Part shown: piece after piece, positions 35,489-42,292 of the stretch
Position numbering within the stretch: position 1 is the stretch's first letter
How the letters are laid out: every line of letters starts with the position of its first letter
Sequence record: PZ445523.1
Reading direction: 5' to 3' (one strand)
Length of the DNA: 64,000 nucleotides
From: a phage
Notes under the pieces: model-generated
Databases searched by the model: none
What the model was told of the DNA's origin: nothing
What the model saw: only the letters and a program-made list of their open reading frames with translations
Program-made: the position numbers and the translations under genes

Positions 35489-35944
35489 TTAAAAGAGGTT
35501 GTTCATTATTCGGTAAAGCGAAGGACCCATCACATATTGCCACTGAGTACGAGGAATAAGAGCAAAAGCGTCCATCTCTGGAATCATAACGCCATCTTTA
35601 TTTTCAAAATAAGACTCGCAGCGGCAATTTCTAAACATCTCATGCTCTACTGGAATCATATAATAAAATAACTGTAGGTCTTTATTACTAGAATATTTAA
35701 ATACACCTAGGTCTTCTAGAAGGTCTGGATTATAATTGCTAAAACCGGTCTCTTCTAAGCATTCTCTTTTTGCAGCTTCCAGTGCATTCAAATCAGAACT
35801 TTCTACACGCCCCTTTGGAATATCCCAGCGATGTGCCATCATTCCAGGCTTACGAGAACCAGTAACCCGACCCATAAATAAATCTTTATCTTCTGTCATA
35901 AAGATAATACCAGCTGATAATGTTTTCATTTTAATTTCCTGCAT
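35489..35944 (-). CDS. nudE: Nudix hydrolase
   Basis: 151 aa; Nudix box GRVESSDLNALEAAKRECLEETGF. Confidence 0.8.
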   Translation of the reverse strand: MQEIKMKTLSAGIIFMTEDKDLFMGRVTGSRKPGMMAHRWDIPKGRVESSDLNALEAAKRECLEETGFSNYNPDLLEDLGVFKYSSNKDLQLFYYMIPVEHEMFRNCRCESYFENKDGVMIPEMDAFALIPRTQWQYVMGPSLYRIMNNLF

Positions 35945-36414
35945 TCAGCGATAAAGCTATTTAAATTTTGGGTATATTTCTTTTCATCAAAAATCTTTTG
36001 TTGTCTGCGTAAACGCCATGGCATTTCAATGAACACGCACCATATTCCAGATAATATTGCTGCTGTCAAAATATTAACAAGCATAATTAAAAGAATCCAA
36101 TCTCCTGTTCTGCCTATTGGACTTTCTCCAAAGAAGCAAAATACGAATGATGACACAGGAAGACTAATGATATACCACAGAATCATAATCTTATTTGTAA
36201 ACCAATCAGCATTTGTTAACTTAGCGCGACCGTTTTGAATACATACGAACTTATCATCTGTTATAGTAGATGGCTTAGCTGCTTGATATCCCATTCTAAA
36301 CTCCCTAATCAACAAATTTTTCATATCTTCGGAACAACCATTCCAGTCAACTCTATCAACTGAAATGCCATCATCCCCATCATCTAAATCATACCAGCGA
36401 GTTTTTAAAATCAT
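35926..36414 (-). CDS. Membrane protein
   Basis: 162 aa with two or three hydrophobic helices. Confidence 0.45.
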   Translation of the reverse strand: MILKTRWYDLDDGDDGISVDRVDWNGCSEDMKNLLIREFRMGYQAAKPSTITDDKFVCIQNGRAKLTNADWFTNKIMILWYIISLPVSSFVFCFFGESPIGRTGDWILLIMLVNILTAAILSGIWCVFIEMPWRLRRQQKIFDEKKYTQNLNSFIAECRKLK

Positions 36415-36773
36415 TTAATTTTCCTACAATCACTCACAAACTCTTCCATTGATTCTTTTTCAATATAAGACATGTAGCTATTATATTCCTTTAATTGTAT
36501 TTTGTAATCCTTTTTTCTTTGCCAATTTATTTTAAAATTATCATAATGAAAATATAACATGGTACCAAAGAATGAAAATAATGAAATAATTTTAGTATAG
36601 CGAAGTTCACTCCAAAATTCTATTATATTTACTGTGCCGTCAATGTTTAAAATAAGACAGTCAATTAACAATCCAAAAAGACTACCCGCAAGAGCTGCAA
36701 ATGCTGATACGGCAAGAATTAATAGTGCCTCTGGAAACGAATATTTAACTTTATTTAGTTTTGGCTTTTGCAT
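36411..36773 (-). CDS. Membrane protein
   Basis: 120 aa, hydrophobic. Confidence 0.45.
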   Translation of the reverse strand: MQKPKLNKVKYSFPEALLILAVSAFAALAGSLFGLLIDCLILNIDGTVNIIEFWSELRYTKIISLFSFFGTMLYFHYDNFKINWQRKKDYKIQLKEYNSYMSYIEKESMEEFVSDCRKIK

Positions 36774-37135
36774 CGTGATTCCTTAACAAATTTCATAATT
36801 TCATCAAATTCATACGCAGCAAGTTTAAGCTGATGTTCCTTTTTAATCTTTTTACACTGAGCTTTCCATTCGCGTACGCGTTTACGATAATGTCTTCCTT
36901 GATACCAGTATCCTACCCAATTTACAGGTACTAATAAAAATGGAACTATCATTGGAAGAAATAGTGTTGACACAAATATTACACCAAATTTATTGGCAGT
37001 CATAACGTCTATAACCATTCCAACTACAAATGATACAACTACCACAGGACCCATTAATACATCAGTAGAAATTATCTGACGCTTTAATTCATACTTCAAC
37101 GGTTTACTTGGAAGGTATAGTGATGGTTTTGACAT
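36755..37135 (-). CDS. Membrane protein
   Basis: Likely start MSKPSLYL; hydrophobic helices. Confidence 0.45.
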   Translation of the reverse strand: MSKPSLYLPSKPLKYELKRQIISTDVLMGPVVVVSFVVGMVIDVMTANKFGVIFVSTLFLPMIVPFLLVPVNWVGYWYQGRHYRKRVREWKAQCKKIKKEHQLKLAAYEFDEIMKFVKESRCKSQN

Positions 37136-37712
37136 ATTCTCTACATTCCTTAACAAATTTTTCTAGTAATAAATCGCTTTCAAAATTGGGATTTTCTACG
37201 AATTTATCAAAAAGATCATCAACAATAGTTAAGATATTCTTTTTACTAAGAATACGTTTATTTTCATGCTTCGTTTCAGAATCAACTATAAGAGTAAAGA
37301 AATATTTCTTTCCCTGAAATTTTACAGTAGTATCAATATAGAATAAATTTGACTTTTGTAAATTACGTTTAAACCATGCATCACTTAAACTATAAACGCC
37401 AAGATAATCATAATCGTCGTTTAAATAACAGACCGTCCATTCAGGAGAAACAAAATCAGTAAATTCAACGTCAAAATCGCATGTTAATAAATGAATTGAT
37501 TCAATACTGTTAATAAGTATTCCAGGACGTATTAAAGACTTTTTACCTCTAGAAAATCTTCCAGAAAGACTTTCATCAGTTTCATATGAAGAACCCCAAT
37601 AATAATTACGTCCTTCTGCCATACGTTTAAGAGCATTTAATAATTGGTCTGGAACATCAACCTGTCTTTGAAACTCTTCAAACATTGAATTGAAATCACT
37701 TTGCATTTTCAT
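37104..37712 (-). CDS. Hypothetical protein
   Basis: 202-aa ORF. Confidence 0.45.
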   Translation of the reverse strand: MKMQSDFNSMFEEFQRQVDVPDQLLNALKRMAEGRNYYWGSSYETDESLSGRFSRGKKSLIRPGILINSIESIHLLTCDFDVEFTDFVSPEWTVCYLNDDYDYLGVYSLSDAWFKRNLQKSNLFYIDTTVKFQGKKYFFTLIVDSETKHENKRILSKKNILTIVDDLFDKFVENPNFESDLLLEKFVKECREYVKTITIPSK

Positions 37713-37730
37713 TCCTATTTACTCCAAGTA

Positions 37731-37751
37731 ATAGGGGCCGAAGCCCCTTAT
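37731..37751 (-). terminator. UUCG-tetraloop hairpin
   Basis: AAGGGGC-UUCG-GCCCCTAT. Confidence 0.55.
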
Positions 37752-37753
37752 CA

Positions 37754-38347
37754 TTATTTCAGAGAATTAATGTATTCCTGAACATCGGCAGAGGTAGTTT
37801 CAACCCCAGAAATATTACCGTTAAAGGTTTCAACTCGAGCAAGAGTATCTTCAATATCAACCTTAGTCAGTGCTGCAATTTCAACTACATCATCAGCAGT
37901 ACTAATTCCAAGGGCATTCGCGGCGCGAGTTTCACGGATATATTCCAATTTAATTGCAAGTTCTTGGCGAGCATCATCTAGCTCAACTACTTTCTTGGCG
38001 ATTTCAATTCGCATTTCAGCATAACCATCAGCTTTAGTAGTCAACTGCTCAGCTGTTCGACGATATAGTAAACCGAGTTTAGCATGCATTGTTACATCTT
38101 GACCTTCGGAAAGAAGCTTGCGAATTTCACGCTCTTTTGATTCGGCCTGCTTATTCTTTTCGACAATAAGTTCACGAATACGCTTTTCTTCATTAATAGA
38201 TTTAACGGAAGCAGTTTTTAGATCTTTAATCTTATCAAGTAGTTTTGCTGCTGCAGCAGTATACTGTTCTTCAACAGATAGATTTTTAGCCATAGCAGAA
38301 CCAAGTTTAGTGCGAATAAACTCAACAATTTTCTTCAGTGTGTTCAT
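37754..38347 (-). CDS. Long coiled-coil protein, tentatively PspA/IM30-like
   Basis: 197 aa, almost entirely helical and charged with an N-terminal amphipathic segment; family assignment is tentative. Confidence 0.4.
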
Positions 38348-38403
38348 AGTATTTCCTTAGGTTGGTATAATTAGATAATATCACGTTTTAATAGATTGTA
38401 AAC

Positions 38404-38739: not shown

Positions 38740-38794
38740 AATGTTCTCCTCAAATTATGGGCTCATAATATCTCAATCATGAGCCTATGTAAAC

Positions 38795-39101: not shown

Positions 39102-39131
39102 ATAGTACCATGGAAGGACAAGGATGTAAAC
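39102..39131 (-). promoter_or_regulatory. Early promoter
   Basis: GTTTAC, 18 nt, TACTAT. Confidence 0.6.
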
Positions 39132-39265
39132 AGTTTTGTGAAAAAATTTTTAAAAAGTTTTAGGGAATTCTAGGGTCAGGAGGGGCAATTAAAAGGTAGG
39201 ATAATATATTATAAAGGGTATAAACTAAATGATGCCTAGAGAGGCCCGGAAAGGCCTAGATACCA

Positions 39266-39292
39266 AAAAGCCCCAACCTTTCGGTCGGGGCT
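39266..39292 (-). terminator. Intrinsic terminator, copy 1 of a duplicated element
   Basis: 10-bp stem AGCCCCGACC / GGTTGGGGCT with GAAA loop and U-tract; identical to 39801-39827. Confidence 0.7.
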
Positions 39293-39299
39293 AAGAATG

Positions 39300-39761
39300 T
39301 TATTTGATTTGTTTAGCAGACCAAATGCGGTCTTTAATAATTTTTTGGATGTCTTCAACATACTCTAGGTCATGAGCATGTGGATTATCTTTGAAACTAT
39401 GAGCTCGCGCAAGTTTCTGGCCTTCGGTCTTAATTATCAAAAGTTCTTTAAGAATTGCTTCATATCTAGAGATAATTCCTTTAGCAATATTTTTTTCTTG
39501 TGCTGCTTTAGGGTCAGCCTTAGGAGCAGGTTTACCAGAAGGTTTTTCGAAAGCCGCACCAGTAGCAACCAGGCTTTTCCAGGCGGTGGTAACATAGTTA
39601 CCCACAAAGCCTTCAGCTCTCATATCGTCATAGAACTTGTACCGAGATTCGTCAGAAGCATCTTTATAAGAATATTTACCAGCTTTAATAGCAGCAGTTG
39701 CTACAGCGCGAACATCTGAAGCGGATGCTTCGGTCATTAAAAATTGAGCATAAGTTTTCAT
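39300..39761 (-). CDS. Internal-protein-like head protein with capsid targeting sequence
   Basis: N-terminus MKTYAQFLMTEA; late promoter TATAAATA 25 nt upstream; flanked by identical terminator hairpins. Confidence 0.6.
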   Translation of the reverse strand: MKTYAQFLMTEASASDVRAVATAAIKAGKYSYKDASDESRYKFYDDMRAEGFVGNYVTTAWKSLVATGAAFEKPSGKPAPKADPKAAQEKNIAKGIISRYEAILKELLIIKTEGQKLARAHSFKDNPHAHDLEYVEDIQKIIKDRIWSAKQIK

Positions 39762-39789: not shown

Positions 39790-39797
39790 TATTTATA
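39790..39797 (-). promoter_or_regulatory. Late promoter upstream of ip-like gene
   Basis: Minus-strand TATAAATA about 25 nt upstream of the start at 39761. Confidence 0.55.
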
Positions 39798-39800
39798 TCA

Positions 39801-39827
39801 AAAAGCCCCAACCTTTCGGTCGGGGCT
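39801..39827 (-). terminator. Intrinsic terminator, copy 2 of a duplicated element
   Basis: Same 27-nt hairpin as 39266-39292. Confidence 0.7.
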
Positions 39828-39831
39828 AAGC

Positions 39832-40221: not shown

Positions 40222-40887
40222 TTAAAATTTCATTTTTCGACCTTTAAACCATCCTTCTGGAATTGGGTCAGTTTTCTTAATACGTTTAGAAACTTTTTCA
40301 TCTAATGAATGAATCCACATCATACCAAATTGGGAATTCTTTTCACCTTTCTGGTGATTATTTTTAGCGTGAATTTCTTTCATTTTATTAATAGTTTCAA
40401 GAGTATGATGCTTATTTAAAAATCTGCTATTATTTAAAAATTTTTCTTTGTATTCAGGAGTTGACCATAAACGTTTAAATACATTTGAACCATTTTTACG
40501 ATATTTTTCTTGAAGTAAAATATCATTTTCAAAACGTGACTTAAACGATTTAGCTCCTTTTAAGCTAGCATCTTTCTTCTGGTTTAGCATTCCAGGAATA
40601 TTTACATGATCCCATCCGCCTTCACCGCCAAGTTTTAAATTATACACATCTGGTCTATTTAAAAACTCTTCTGTGACAATATTTTTCTCGGCTTCAAGCA
40701 TAGATTCTTTATCATCAAAATACTCTAATATTTCTTTAGAAAAATTTTCTATACCATATTTATCTTGGGCTCTTTTTAATAATTTACCAGAACCCATATA
40801 TCCATCATCTAAATTTTCGGTAGAATGCACACCAATATAAATTTTATTATTAATTTTATTTGTTATTTTATAAGTGTAATAGAACAT
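40222..40887 (-). CDS. segB: GIY-YIG homing endonuclease SegB
   Basis: 221 aa; YKITNKINNKIYIGVHS...GSG GIY-YIG module; sits inside the tRNA cluster as in T4. Confidence 0.8.
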   Translation of the reverse strand: MFYYTYKITNKINNKIYIGVHSTENLDDGYMGSGKLLKRAQDKYGIENFSKEILEYFDDKESMLEAEKNIVTEEFLNRPDVYNLKLGGEGGWDHVNIPGMLNQKKDASLKGAKSFKSRFENDILLQEKYRKNGSNVFKRLWSTPEYKEKFLNNSRFLNKHHTLETINKMKEIHAKNNHQKGEKNSQFGMMWIHSLDEKVSKRIKKTDPIPEGWFKGRKMKF

Positions 40888-40928
40888 AAATATCTCCTAT
40901 TTCTAAGAGTATTTATGTTCTCAAAATA

Positions 40929-41002
40929 TGACCCAGACCAGATTTGAACTGGTAACCTTTCCCTTATGAGGGGACTGCTGCTAACCATTGAGCTACAGGG
41001 CC
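40929..41002 (-). tRNA. tRNA-Ile, anticodon CAU
   Basis: Anticodon loop CTCATAA, T-loop TTCAAAT; D-stem and one acceptor pair imperfect by eye; no encoded CCA. Confidence 0.55.
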
Positions 41003-41003
41003 T

Positions 41004-41079
41004 TGGTGCTGATTGACGGAATCGAACCGCCGACCTTCTCATTACAAGTGAGTTGCTCTACCTACTGAGCTAAATCAGC
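41004..41079 (-). tRNA. tRNA-Thr, anticodon UGU
   Basis: Acceptor GCTGATT/AATCAGC, D-arm GCTCAGTAGGTAGAGC, anticodon loop CTTGTAA, T-loop TTCGATT, encoded CCA. Confidence 0.75.
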
Positions 41080-41081
41080 AA

Positions 41082-41168
41082 CGGAGGCGATAGGATTTGA
41101 ACCTATGAGTCGCCGGAGCGACTGCCGGTTTTCAAGACCGGTGCATTAAACCACTCTGCCACGCCTCC
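41082..41168 (-). tRNA. tRNA-Ser, anticodon UGA
   Basis: Acceptor GGAGGCG/CGCCTCC, anticodon loop CTTGAAA, long variable arm, T-loop TTCAAAT. Confidence 0.75.
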
Positions 41169-41170
41169 AG

Positions 41171-41244
41171 TCTCCGTGGCAGGATTTGAACCTACGACAT
41201 TCTGCTCCCAAAGCAGACGCTCTACCAAACTGAGCTACACGGAG
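41171..41244 (-). tRNA. tRNA-Pro, anticodon UGG
   Basis: Acceptor CTCCGTG/CACGGAG, D-arm GCTCAGTTTGGTAGAGC, anticodon loop TTTGGGA. Confidence 0.75.
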
Positions 41245-41254
41245 TAAATTAAAT

Positions 41255-41328
<74 letters not shown>

Positions 41329-41333
41329 AAATT

Positions 41334-41420
41334 TGGTACGAGAAGTGGGACTCGAACCCACAAGGAAATCATTCCGCAGCATTTTAAGTGCTGTGCCTTT
41401 ACCAATTTGGCCATTCTCGC
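41334..41420 (-). tRNA. tRNA-Leu, anticodon UAA
   Basis: Acceptor GCGAGAA/TTCTCGT, anticodon loop CTTAAAA, long variable arm, encoded CCA. Confidence 0.75.
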
Positions 41421-41421
41421 G

Positions 41422-41494
41422 CTGGGAATAAAGGACTCGAACCTTTGCATCTAGCAGTCAAAGTGCTATGCCTTACCAACTTGGCTAATTCCCA
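41422..41494 (-). tRNA. tRNA-Gln, anticodon UUG
   Basis: Acceptor TGGGAAT/ATTCCCA, anticodon stem TAGCA/TGCTA with loop CTTTGAC, T-loop TTCGAGT. Confidence 0.75.
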
Positions 41495-41591
41495 ATTATT
41501 AACAAAGGCTCTCAAACAAGAACCCTTGATGATAGAGGGTATTAATCAGTGCGGTATGAGTTAATAATAACAAATAATTCTTAAAGCATAT

Positions 41592-41879
41592 TTACCATTT
41601 ATGATAATACGTATTTACGATACATTCAAGACCCAAAGGATTCTTGAAAATATCATATTCAAGAGGACCTTTTTCTGTTTCAATAAAGAAATCAAAATTT
41701 ACTGTATTAAATTTACGGTCTTCCTTCACTAATTTAACTTGAGAAGATGAACGGTCAATGTAAACCTTTTCAACTTCAAAACATGTTAAAATTCCATAAT
41801 CATCAATCAAGGCTTTAGCAGCGTCTTGATCATATTTATATCCATTTTCAATGGACGATACTTTCGCATAAAGAATCAT
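41592..41879 (-). CDS. Hypothetical protein
   Basis: 95-aa ORF. Confidence 0.4.
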   Translation of the reverse strand: MILYAKVSSIENGYKYDQDAAKALIDDYGILTCFEVEKVYIDRSSSQVKLVKEDRKFNTVNFDFFIETEKGPLEYDIFKNPLGLECIVNTYYHKW

Positions 41880-41881
41880 TA

Positions 41882-42292
41882 TCAGCCTCTATCAACGATA
41901 GTATGAGTATGGGCATTTACGATTTGCCACCAGTCGAAACGATTGGAACCATAATCTGGTTTATTTTCATTTTCTTTAATGATATCACGCAGTTTATCTT
42001 CTGTTTCAGCATACGCAATTAAATCATCATATCCACCACAAGGATAATAATTATCACCTGCGAATAAAAGAAAATTTACCTTAGATGGATTTACGTAATA
42101 ATGGTCTTTAGGATATTTAGTTCCTCTCCAATCAGTTACTTCAACATAACGATAAGAAAATCCATTTTTACTTTCAATCCAACTCCACGCTTCAAAAGGA
42201 GTATTAAAAACTTTATCAGGTATTAAATTACCTTCAAAATGAGAAGGATTTGCATAATCCCCGGCATAAACATAATATTCGTTAATACTCAT
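41882..42292 (-). CDS. Hypothetical protein
   Basis: 136-aa ORF, aromatic-rich. Confidence 0.45.
   Translation of the reverse strand: MSINEYYVYAGDYANPSHFEGNLIPDKVFNTPFEAWSWIESKNGFSYRYVEVTDWRGTKYPKDHYYVNPSKVNFLLFAGDNYYPCGGYDDLIAYAETEDKLRDIIKENENKPDYGSNRFDWWQIVNAHTHTIVDRG

What the first reader, a model, noticed from the sequence alone, without database searches (positions are those of the whole stretch)
35926..38347. Three small membrane proteins followed by a long coiled-coil, possibly PspA/IM30-like, protein
Three consecutive overlapping ORFs encode hydrophobic proteins (35926-36414, 36411-36773, 36755-37135). Upstream, the 197-aa ORF at 37754-38347 is almost wholly helical with an N-terminal amphipathic segment, loosely resembling membrane-stress PspA/ESCRT-III-like proteins. 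Together they could form a membrane-remodelling or envelope-stress module. The PspA assignment is a weak impression only.
Basis: inference. Interest (0 to 1): 0.4.

Follow-up and report, generated by a model that had tools for sequence, protein, structure and literature searches.

The report
Phage T4-type PspA-like protein e.6
The window comes from a T4-like phage. Its 197-aa gene e.6, so far annotated only as a hypothetical protein, is a divergent relative of the bacterial membrane-repair protein PspA/Vipp1 (ESCRT-III superfamily). The three small genes downstream (e.2, e.3, e.4) are the already known predicted inner-membrane proteins, and their functional link to e.6 is suggested but not shown.

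Summary
The window is a Tequatrovirus (T4-like) genome segment, and all the ORFs sit at the stated coordinates on the minus strand. They are T4 genes e.2, e.3, e.4 and e.6.

**Membrane ORFs.** e.2 and e.4 each have two clear transmembrane segments. e.3 has one clear and one weaker segment. All three end in a basic cytoplasmic tail.

**e.6.** The "weak impression" of PspA holds up:
- AlphaFold2 gives helix 2-22 plus a confident 25-80/86-145 hairpin. These are the boundaries of PspA/Vipp1 alpha0 and the alpha1-alpha2/3 hairpin.
- The ten best Foldseek PDB hits are all Vipp1.
- A 42-sequence family profile hits Vipp1 chains at E about 1e-4, collinear from residue 1.
- Two Ackermannviridae family members pass Pfam's PspA_IM30 threshold.
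- The window protein itself does not hit that Pfam model. The last ~50 residues are family-specific.

**Module claim.** This is only partly supported. Membrane proteins are enriched downstream of e.6 homologues, but e.6 has its own promoter-like site and also occurs without membrane-protein neighbours. Reference T4 carries a frameshifted e.2.

**Status.** T4 knock-downs of e.2-e.8 show no laboratory phenotype, and the papers searched did not describe e.6 as PspA-like. This is a new member of a known kind, of moderate interest.

The parts
37754..38347 (-). e.6, 197 aa: divergent phage member of the PspA/IM30(Vipp1)/ESCRT-III superfamily
   Evidence: ORF. It is 196/197 identical to T4 e.6 and matches phrog_1203. 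AF2 model has pLDDT 78. Foldseek top 10 are all Vipp1. The family profile hits Vipp1 at E = 8.5e-5. Relatives pass PF04012.
38282..38344 (-). e.6 residues 2-22: cationic amphipathic N-terminal helix (alpha0-like, putative membrane anchor)
   Evidence: Helix 2-22 in the AF2 model, at low pLDDT of about 50. Hydrophobic moment is 0.45. It aligns with Vipp1 residues 1-22 in the profile hit.
37913..38275 (-). e.6 residues 25-145: long two-helix hairpin (alpha1 / alpha2-3-like), turn at 81-85
   Evidence: AF2 helices 25-80 and 86-145, with pLDDT 86-96 over most of the length. The PspA/Vipp1 hairpin spans aa 24-142 (PMC8281802).
37757..37912 (-). e.6 residues 146-197: family-specific conserved C-terminal region (short helices 166-174 and 186-196). 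It is not matched by PF04012 positions 144-220.
   Evidence: Conserved residues G147, E156, L160, T174-F175, Y192 and L196 in A1. AF2 confidence is low. The Pfam match in relatives ends at profile position 143.
38375..38402 (-). Promoter-like site (TTTACA-16-TATTAT with TG) just upstream of e.6. Similar sites precede e.7 and e.8.
   Evidence: Consensus scan; sequence read. Function is not shown.
37733..37748 (-). GGGGC-UUCG-GCCCC stem-loop between the e.6 stop codon and the e.5 start codon
   Evidence: Sequence. RNA fold gives -15.1 kcal/mol, z = -2.0. There is no T-run on the coding strand, so it is not a canonical intrinsic terminator.
37104..37712 (-). e.5, 202 aa soluble protein of unknown fold. 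Its end overlaps the e.4 start codon.
   Evidence: ORF; phrog_2607; relatives carry a precomputed PF26876 hit. The AF2 model has pLDDT of only 58 and was not interpreted.
36755..37135 (-). e.4, 126 aa: two-transmembrane hairpin (26-44, 51-69) with a +9 basic C-terminal tail
   Evidence: phrog_2604.
36411..36773 (-). e.3, 120 aa: one clear transmembrane segment (19-37), a weaker second hydrophobic segment (62-76), and a basic N-terminus and C-tail
   Evidence: phrog_2330.
35926..36414 (-). e.2, 162 aa: 75-aa soluble N-terminal domain, two-transmembrane hairpin (76-94, 106-124), and a +5 basic C-tail. It is intact here but frameshifted in reference T4.
   Evidence: phrog_2203 'membrane protein'.
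35489..35944 (-). nudE (Nudix hydrolase), overlapping the end of e.2. It is the last gene of the overlapping e.5-e.4-e.3-e.2-nudE run.
   Evidence: PF00293 at E = 4.6e-13; annotation of RB18 and T4.

Best explanation
**Shown.**
- The 197-aa ORF is T4 gene e.6.
- Its family occurs in more than 1,100 phage records of Straboviridae and Ackermannviridae.
- The family is a remote homologue of PspA/IM30(Vipp1), that is, of the ESCRT-III superfamily.
- The protein has a cationic amphipathic N-terminal helix (residues 2-22) and a long alpha1/alpha2-3 hairpin (25-145), with the same boundaries as PspA/Vipp1.
- A phage-specific, conserved tail of about 50 residues follows, in place of a recognisable alpha4/alpha5.
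- e.2, e.3 and e.4 are small hairpin inner-membrane proteins. By the positive-inside rule, both ends and the basic C-terminal tails face the cytoplasm.
- They are encoded in an overlapping run, e.5-e.4-e.3-e.2-nudE.

**Inferred.**
- e.6 is made from its own early-type promoter.
- Like PspA/Vipp1, it binds the cytoplasmic face of the inner membrane through helix alpha0 and polymerises through its hairpin.
- This would seal or stabilise the membrane and hold the proton-motive force while the phage stresses it. Sources of stress include the injection puncture, the load of phage membrane proteins and holin, and host abortive-infection effectors that depolarise the membrane.
- It would be an accessory function, dispensable in standard laboratory hosts.

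**Weakest step.** The neighbouring membrane proteins may act as clients or anchors for e.6.
For: **Identity.** The segment is about 96% identical to RB18 and similar to more than 500 Tequatrovirus records. e.6 is 196/197 identical to T4 e.6.

**Fold.**
- AF2 gives H2-22, H25-80 and H86-145, with pLDDT about 90 in the hairpin.
- PMC8281802 defines alpha0 as aa 1-22 and the hairpin as aa 24-142.
- In the Foldseek PDB search, ranks 1-10 are all Vipp1 (best E = 6.7e-4), followed by archaeal CdvB2.
- In BFVD, after ranks 1-6 (apparent e.6 relatives, mostly unnamed phage proteins of about 200 aa), the first named outside hits are a Snf7-family protein and a PspA/IM30 family protein of Acinetobacter phage ME3.

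**Sequence.**
- The A2 profile against PDB sequences hits Vipp1 chains in eight of the nine best places, at E = 8.5e-5 to 1.9e-3. The alignments run 1-146 against 1-147.
- The same profile scores 28.1 bits on Vipp1(1-147). Shuffled sequences give -2.7 +/- 2.2 (maximum 11.1) and the reversed sequence gives -0.1.
- Five of 42 family members hit PF04012. P0062 scores 39.0 bits and P0061 35.1 bits, both above the gathering score of 33.9.
- The e.6 profile found P0061 at E = 2.4e-21 and P0062 at E = 4.0e-20, over their full length.
- P0062 aligns to the window protein at BLASTP E = 1e-13 with one gap.
- hhalign against E. coli PspA puts residues 1-59 in register (P = 1.5e-4).

**Amphipathic alpha0.** Hydrophobic moment 0.45.

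**Expression signals.**

**Membrane topology.**

**Neighbourhood.** Transmembrane proteins make up 12/30 of the four genes downstream of e.6 homologues. Elsewhere they are 6/97 in the same loci and 9/88 in the window. This includes the unrelated Ackermannviridae context.

**Selection and dispensability.** e.6 is far better conserved between the window and T4 than e.3 and e.4. Knock-downs show no phenotype in the laboratory.
Against: - The window protein itself gives no PF04012 hit at E <= 0.1 and no NCBIfam hit.
- The family profile scores only 4.3 bits on E. coli PspA.
- hhalign probability against E. coli PspA is only 51% and covers 59 residues.
- Long helical hairpins and coiled-coil composition inflate such matches.
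- The C-terminal third has no counterpart of alpha4/alpha5, which mediate polymerisation in the known family.
- No experiment shows membrane binding, polymerisation or any phenotype. CRISPRi-ART scored e.2-e.8 'Not Fit', meaning no fitness effect.
- e.6 homologues lie between nrdD and nrdG with no membrane-protein neighbours in Tulanevirus and Pseudotevenvirus.
- The enrichment counts are not phylogenetically independent.
Confidence: 0.6

Rival explanations
1. e.6 is a PspA mimic that acts on regulation rather than on the membrane. It would use its hairpin to bind host PspF, or PspB/PspC, and so block or trigger the host Psp response during infection.
For: The homologous part is exactly alpha0 plus the hairpin. 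From general knowledge of the E. coli Psp system, this is the part of PspA that contacts PspF. The polymerisation helices alpha4/alpha5 are not recognisable. The protein appears to be expressed early.
Against: The family resembles Vipp1 more than enterobacterial PspA (28.1 against 4.3 bits). It is conserved in phages of Aeromonas, Proteus, Klebsiella and Serratia. Nothing tested here bears on PspF binding.
Confidence: 0.15
2. e.6 is only a generic coiled-coil protein, for example a structural, scaffolding or 'host specificity' protein. On this reading its similarity to Vipp1/PspA comes from helical-hairpin geometry and composition, and it has no membrane role.
Against: PF04012 beats the next Pfam family by about seven orders of magnitude in P0062. 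The alignments to Vipp1 are end-to-end and in register from residue 1. Shuffled and reversed controls score about 28 to 31 bits lower. The promoter-like site just upstream matches the sigma-70 type, which from general T4 knowledge is used for early and not late structural genes. The functional labels appear without stated evidence in the records.
Confidence: 0.1
3. e.6, e.5 and the hairpin membrane proteins e.4, e.3 and e.2 form one functional unit. In this unit e.6 would be recruited by the basic cytoplasmic tails of the membrane proteins. The unit would be a phage-built, Psp-like system for superinfection exclusion, counter-defence or lysis timing.
For: Transmembrane proteins are enriched downstream of e.6 homologues in two different genomic contexts. 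e.5, e.4, e.3 and e.2 share a C-terminal F-[VI]-x-x-C-R-K-type tail and overlapping reading frames. All predicted tails face the cytoplasm, where e.6 would be.
Against: e.6 has its own promoter-like site and is separated from e.5 by a stem-loop. Homologues of e.2-e.5 are not detectable outside close relatives. e.6 occurs without any membrane-protein neighbour in the nrdD-nrdG context. Reference T4 has a frameshifted e.2. The shared tail coincides with the ribosome-binding site of the next gene, so it may reflect that constraint. There are no PspB/PspC hits.
Confidence: 0.15

Closest known systems
PspA / IM30 (Vipp1) family, Pfam PF04012, bacterial branch of the ESCRT-III superfamily
   Same: N-terminal amphipathic helix (2-22) and alpha1/alpha2-3 hairpin (25-145), at the same positions as alpha0 (1-22) and the hairpin (24-142). 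The length, about 200 aa, is similar. Profile and Foldseek best hits are Vipp1. Two family members pass the Pfam threshold.
   Different: The window protein is too diverged to hit PF04012 directly. The last ~50 residues form a conserved, phage-specific region with no recognisable alpha4/alpha5. The gene is phage-encoded, appears to be early expressed, and has no PspF/PspB/PspC partners nearby. It lies closer to Vipp1 than to the host's own PspA.
Eukaryotic/archaeal ESCRT-III (Snf7/CHMP, CdvB)
   Different: No sequence-level match to Snf7 family models. No Vps4-type ATPase is expected in the host (general knowledge). The similarity scores are weaker than for Vipp1.
Phage proteins already labelled PspA/IM30
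   Same: The Ackermannviridae relatives P0061 and P0062 carry precomputed PF04012 hits. Acinetobacter phage vB_AbaM_ME3 has a protein named 'PspA/IM30 family protein', which is a Foldseek hit of e.6. Phage-borne members of this family therefore already exist in databases.
   Different: T4 e.6 and its roughly 1,100 Straboviridae homologues are annotated as hypothetical or mislabelled 'host specificity protein'. The papers searched reported no function for any phage member.
PspB / PspC, the small membrane partners of PspA in E. coli
   Same: Small inner-membrane proteins encoded next to a PspA-like gene (one search shows the pspABC order in E. coli).
   Different: e.2-e.4 give no Pfam or NCBIfam match to PspB/PspC. 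They are two-transmembrane hairpins, whereas PspB/PspC are single-span proteins (general knowledge). A soluble 202-aa gene separates them from e.6.

Membership tests
PspA/IM30 (PF04012) | Sequence match to the family model above its curated threshold | tested here: inconclusive
   The window protein has no PF04012 hit at E <= 0.1. Homologues P0062 (39.0 bits) and P0061 (35.1 bits) exceed the gathering score of 33.9, over profile positions 2-143. They are linked to e.6 at E about 1e-20 by profile and at 1e-13 by BLASTP for P0062. Membership therefore rests on transitive homology.
PspA/IM30 / ESCRT-III superfamily | Hairpin formed by helix alpha1 and the joined helices alpha2/alpha3 (aa 24-142 in PspA/Vipp1), the hallmark of the superfamily (PMC8281802) | tested here: met
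   AF2 helices 25-80 and 86-145 with pLDDT 86-96. Foldseek top 10 are all Vipp1. The profile alignment to Vipp1 is collinear, 1-146 against 1-147. This is a prediction, not an experimental structure.
PspA/IM30 | N-terminal amphipathic helix alpha0 (aa 1-22) that binds membrane | tested here: met
   Predicted helix 2-22 (low pLDDT). Hydrophobic moment is 0.45, against 0.42 for E. coli PspA alpha0. By direct reading of residues 2-19 it carries four K/R and one acidic residue. It aligns to Vipp1 alpha0. Membrane binding itself was not tested.
PspA/IM30 / ESCRT-III superfamily | [quoted passage not shown] | tested here: inconclusive
   Residues 146-197 have only short predicted helices (166-174, 186-196) at low confidence. 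They are not covered by the PF04012 match or the Vipp1 alignment. The region is nevertheless strongly conserved within the family. Whether helix 186-196 plays the alpha5 role is unknown.
PspA/IM30 / ESCRT-III superfamily | Self-assembly into rings, rods or filaments that remodel or seal membranes | not testable with these tools
   This needs purified protein, electron microscopy and liposome assays.
E. coli-type Psp system | PspA working with PspB/PspC membrane partners and the regulator PspF | tested here: not met
   e.2, e.3, e.4 and e.5 have no Pfam or NCBIfam hits to PspB, PspC or PspF. Their architecture differs from the pspABC genes seen.
BAR-domain proteins | Three-helix bundle, dimeric and banana-shaped, that binds membranes | tested here: inconclusive

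The most novel reading that the evidence does not exclude
T4-like and ViI-like phages carry their own ESCRT-III/PspA-type membrane-repair protein. It would be made early and would keep the infected cell's inner membrane energised against damage. That damage would include host abortive-infection effectors that kill by depolarising the membrane, and e.6 may act together with the adjacent hairpin membrane proteins. This would be a counter-defence by membrane repair, a strategy the papers searched here did not describe for phages.
Probability: 0.15. Interest if true: 0.75.

Novelty: new member of a known kind. Interest (0 to 1): 0.45.

Why it matters
T4 is the reference lytic phage, yet e.6 is still listed as a hypothetical protein. 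It is nearly invariant across Tequatroviruses and present in more than 1,100 phage records.

Recognising it as a PspA/Vipp1-type protein gives a concrete, testable hypothesis for an uncharacterised, widely conserved early gene: that the phage brings its own copy of the host's membrane-stress effector.

Possible connections, all from general knowledge, are:
- how T4 restores membrane potential after DNA injection;
- how T4 sustains long lysis inhibition;
- how T4 resists membrane-targeting host defences.

It would also add a compact, 197-residue, naturally diverged member to the ESCRT-III superfamily for structural comparison.

The value is limited for three reasons. Phage PspA/IM30 annotations already exist. 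Knock-down shows no laboratory phenotype. The link to the three membrane proteins is unproven.

Tried and rejected
**Searches that gave nothing direct.**
1. Pfam, NCBIfam and PDB sequence searches with the single e.6 protein found nothing significant. Only the diverse family profile and individual distant members made the link.
2. The exhaustive profile search of 1.84 billion representatives returned only 45 clusters. The full-length ones are about 195-209 aa and the rest are shorter fragments. No bona fide bacterial PspA was pulled in at E <= 0.001.
3. hhalign against a PspA alignment was limited. The only PspA sequences I could collect were 86-100% identical enterobacterial ones, which gave 51% probability over 59 residues.

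**Structure-based attempts.**
5. AlphaFold2 of e.5 with a shallow alignment gave pLDDT 58. I did not run a fold search on it or interpret it.
6. The afdb50 library was not available.

**Neighbourhood and paralogy.**
With a single protein it gave one locus, so a wider neighbourhood survey in IMG/VR was not possible.
8. Homology of e.2/e.3/e.4 to each other is not established. Pairwise BLASTP gives only a weak match between the e.2 and e.3 tails (E = 0.013 in a four-sequence database). The shared C-terminal motif coincides with the ribosome-binding site of the next gene.
9. Similarity among the genes immediately downstream of e.6 in different phages is too weak to call, at mostly under 10 bits.

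**Literature.**

**Labels.**
11. The labels 'host specificity protein' and 'tail completion protein' in some records are rejected as unsupported.
Full report
**What the region is.** The window is a T4-like (Tequatrovirus) genome.
- The segment 35400-38800 is about 96% identical to phage RB18 and similar to more than 500 phage records.
- All genes here are on the minus strand.
- By comparison with RB18 and T4, the order of transcription is e.8, e.7, e.6 (37754-38347), e.5 (37104-37712), e.4 (36755-37135), e.3 (36411-36773), e.2 (35926-36414), nudE, e (lysozyme), denV.

**Check of the observation.**
- The coordinates are exact.
- With 19-residue Kyte-Doolittle windows, e.2 has transmembrane segments at 76-94 and 106-124, and e.4 at 26-44 and 51-69.
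- e.3 has one clear segment at 19-37 and a weaker one at 62-76.
- Charge distribution places the N-termini and the strongly basic C-terminal tails (+5, +2 and +9) in the cytoplasm, giving an N-in/C-in hairpin.
- Only 9 of 88 other minus-strand ORFs in the window reach the same hydrophobicity threshold. Three in a row is not a chance run.
- This part was already known. The NCBI-derived annotation column of the CRISPRi-ART T4 gene table calls e.2-e.4 'predicted membrane protein' (PMC11879866 supplement).

**e.6 at the level of structure.**
- Forty-four close homologues were found, down to 47% identity among the full-length ones. I aligned 28 sequences (alignment A1).
- AlphaFold2 gave a model with mean pLDDT 78. 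It has helix 2-22, helix 25-80, a turn, helix 86-145 (pLDDT about 86-96 in the hairpin), and then short helices 166-174 and 186-196 at low confidence.
- In PspA and Vipp1, helix alpha0 is residues 1-22 and the alpha1/alpha2-3 hairpin is residues 24-142. The hairpin is the hallmark of the Vipp1/PspA/ESCRT-III superfamily (PMC8281802). The boundaries coincide.
- Foldseek against the PDB returned Vipp1 chains at ranks 1-10 (best E = 6.7e-4), followed by archaeal CdvB2.
- Against viral models (BFVD), ranks 1-6 are apparent e.6 relatives, mostly unnamed phage proteins of about 200 aa. The first named outside hits are a Snf7-family protein and a 'PspA/IM30 family protein' of Acinetobacter phage ME3.

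**e.6 at the level of sequence.**
- The single protein hits nothing in Pfam, NCBIfam or PDB sequences.
- An exhaustive profile search found only 45 representative clusters. The full-length ones are about 195-209 aa.
- I built a 42-sequence alignment that reaches 18% identity to e.6 (A2).
- Its profile hits Vipp1 chains in eight of the nine best places in the PDB sequence set, at E = 8.5e-5 to 1.9e-3. The alignments run from residue 1 to about 146 in both partners.
- As a composition control, the same profile scores 28.1 bits on Vipp1(1-147). A thousand shuffles give -2.7 +/- 2.2 (maximum 11.1), and the reversed sequence gives -0.1. E. coli PspA scores only 4.3 bits.
- Scanning each family member against Pfam, five of 42 hit PF04012 (PspA_IM30).
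- P0062 (39.0 bits, E = 8.9e-10) and P0061 (35.1 bits) exceed the gathering score of 33.9 over profile positions 2-143. The next family is about seven orders of magnitude worse.
- These two proteins come from Ackermannviridae-type phages.
- P0062 aligns to the window protein over 194 residues with a single gap (BLASTP E = 1e-13). P0061 and P0062 share the family's non-coiled-coil C-terminal motifs.
- hhalign against a shallow E. coli PspA alignment aligned residues 1-59 in register (P = 1.5e-4, probability 51%).
- Together these results make e.6 a remote but genuine relative of PspA/IM30, closer to Vipp1 than to the host's PspA.
- The last ~50 residues contain several of the family's most conserved positions: G147, E156, L160, T174-F175, Y192 and L196. 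They have no counterpart in the Pfam model or the Vipp1 alignment.

**Signals and conservation.**
- Just upstream of e.6 there is a TTTACA-16-TATTAT site with a TG extension (38402-38375). Similar sites precede e.7 and e.8. They resemble T4 early promoters (general knowledge), but function is not shown.
- Between e.6 and e.5 lies a GGGGC-UUCG-GCCCC stem-loop with no T-run on the coding strand.
- e.5, e.4, e.3, e.2 and nudE overlap one another, which suggests coupled translation.
- Against reference T4, e.6 is 196/197 identical. The other values are 191/202 for e.5, 103/126 for e.4 and 100/120 for e.3.
- T4's e.2 is cut short by frameshifts after its first transmembrane segment.
- In the CRISPRi-ART screen, all of T4 e.2-e.8 scored 'Not Fit', meaning no fitness effect of knock-down.

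**Is it one module?** e.6 homologues occur in 1,107 phage records and in at least three genomic contexts.
- *Tevenvirinae genera and a Proteus Bragavirus.* e.6 sits after the tRNA region. It is followed by a soluble protein of 160-234 aa and then one to three small membrane proteins.
- *Ackermannviridae-type contigs.* e.6 lies between the uvsX/41 region and the ligase region. It is flanked by small or N-terminally anchored membrane proteins.
- *Tulanevirus and Pseudotevenvirus.* e.6 lies between nrdD and nrdG with no membrane-protein neighbours.

Transmembrane proteins make up 12/30 of the four genes downstream of e.6 homologues, against 6/97 elsewhere in those loci. These counts are not phylogenetically independent. 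Homologues of e.2-e.5 are not detectable outside close relatives. e.2-e.4 have no similarity to PspB/PspC. The C-terminal motif shared by e.2-e.5 (F-[VI]-x-x-C-R-K) coincides with the ribosome-binding site of the next, overlapping gene. The module idea remains a hypothesis with modest support.

**Most likely mechanism.** By homology, e.6 should bind the cytoplasmic face of the inner membrane through its cationic amphipathic helix. It should self-associate through the hairpin and so stabilise or reseal a stressed membrane and preserve the proton-motive force during infection. This step is inferred, not shown.

The divergent tail may replace alpha4/alpha5 in polymerisation, or may bind a partner.

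The rivals are:
- a regulatory mimic acting on host PspF or PspBC;
- a generic coiled-coil with no membrane role;
- a true e.6/e.5/e.4/e.3/e.2 unit.

**Novelty.**
- Phage proteins labelled PspA/IM30 already exist in databases.
- T4 e.6 and its Straboviridae homologues are annotated as hypothetical, or mislabelled 'host specificity protein'.
- None of the papers searched describes them as PspA-like or gives a function.
- I rate it a new member of a known kind, with moderate interest.

Noticed in passing
window 39260-39295 and 39795-39830: A near-identical 36-nt direct repeat (35/36) contains a terminator-like hairpin, AGCCCCGACCGAAAGGTTGGGGCT, followed by a T-run. The two copies bracket the 153-aa ORF 39300-39761 (an RB32ORF132c-like gene). 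That ORF is absent from T4, where e.8 is followed by rnaC. It looks like a cassette inserted between repeated stem-loops, as described for promoter/stem-loop shuffling in T4-like phages (PMC4122927, title and abstract only).
   Followed up: partly
window 36778-36793 and 37145-37160: An exact 16-nt direct repeat, ATTCCTTAACAAATTT, lies at the e.4/e.3 and e.5/e.4 junctions. On the coding strand it reads AAATTTGTTAAGGAAT, which encodes the K-F-V-K-E tail and carries the ribosome-binding site of the next overlapping gene. e.2, e.3, e.4 and e.5 all end in a similar F-[VI]-x-x-C-R-K-type tail. This may reflect duplication or the ribosome-binding-site constraint.
   Followed up: partly
window 35926-36414 compared with L014 (T4 NC_000866 67491-67960): Reference T4 e.2 is only 102 aa. 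It is cut off after the first transmembrane segment. The rest of the protein is still readable in the other two frames between e.2 and nudE. The laboratory T4 copy is therefore a frameshifted remnant, while the window's e.2 (162 aa) is intact.
   Followed up: yes
window 37754-38347 and public phage records: Many phage records label e.6 homologues 'host specificity protein' (RAST-type annotation), and one labels it 'tail completion protein'. Nothing found here supports either label. They look like propagated mis-annotations.
   Followed up: partly
window 38765-38793 and 39102-39130 (minus strand): e.7 and e.8 each have their own TTTACA-17-TATTAT/TACTAT promoter-like site, like e.6. The three small genes upstream of e.5 may therefore each be separate early transcription units.
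   Followed up: no
window 40222-40887 and about 40900-42000: A GIY-YIG homing-endonuclease gene (segB-like, 221 aa) lies next to the phage tRNA cluster. A 2026 paper (PMC13096335, abstract only) reports that SegB promotes segmental amplification of anti-defence loci in T6. I did not check whether the e.x genes fall in such amplified segments.
   Followed up: no
L013 6661-8293 (Ackermannviridae-type contig): The three genes after the PspA_IM30-positive e.6 homologue encode proteins of 197, 139 and 156 aa. Two of them have an N-terminal transmembrane anchor. They appear to share a domain (FW..F....FPKV-type motif), which suggests a small paralogous family next to e.6 in that lineage too.
   Followed up: no
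window 37104-37712: Relatives of e.5 carry a precomputed hit to Pfam PF26876. That family is not in the local Pfam copy, which gave no hit, so the family name and description could not be read.
   Followed up: no
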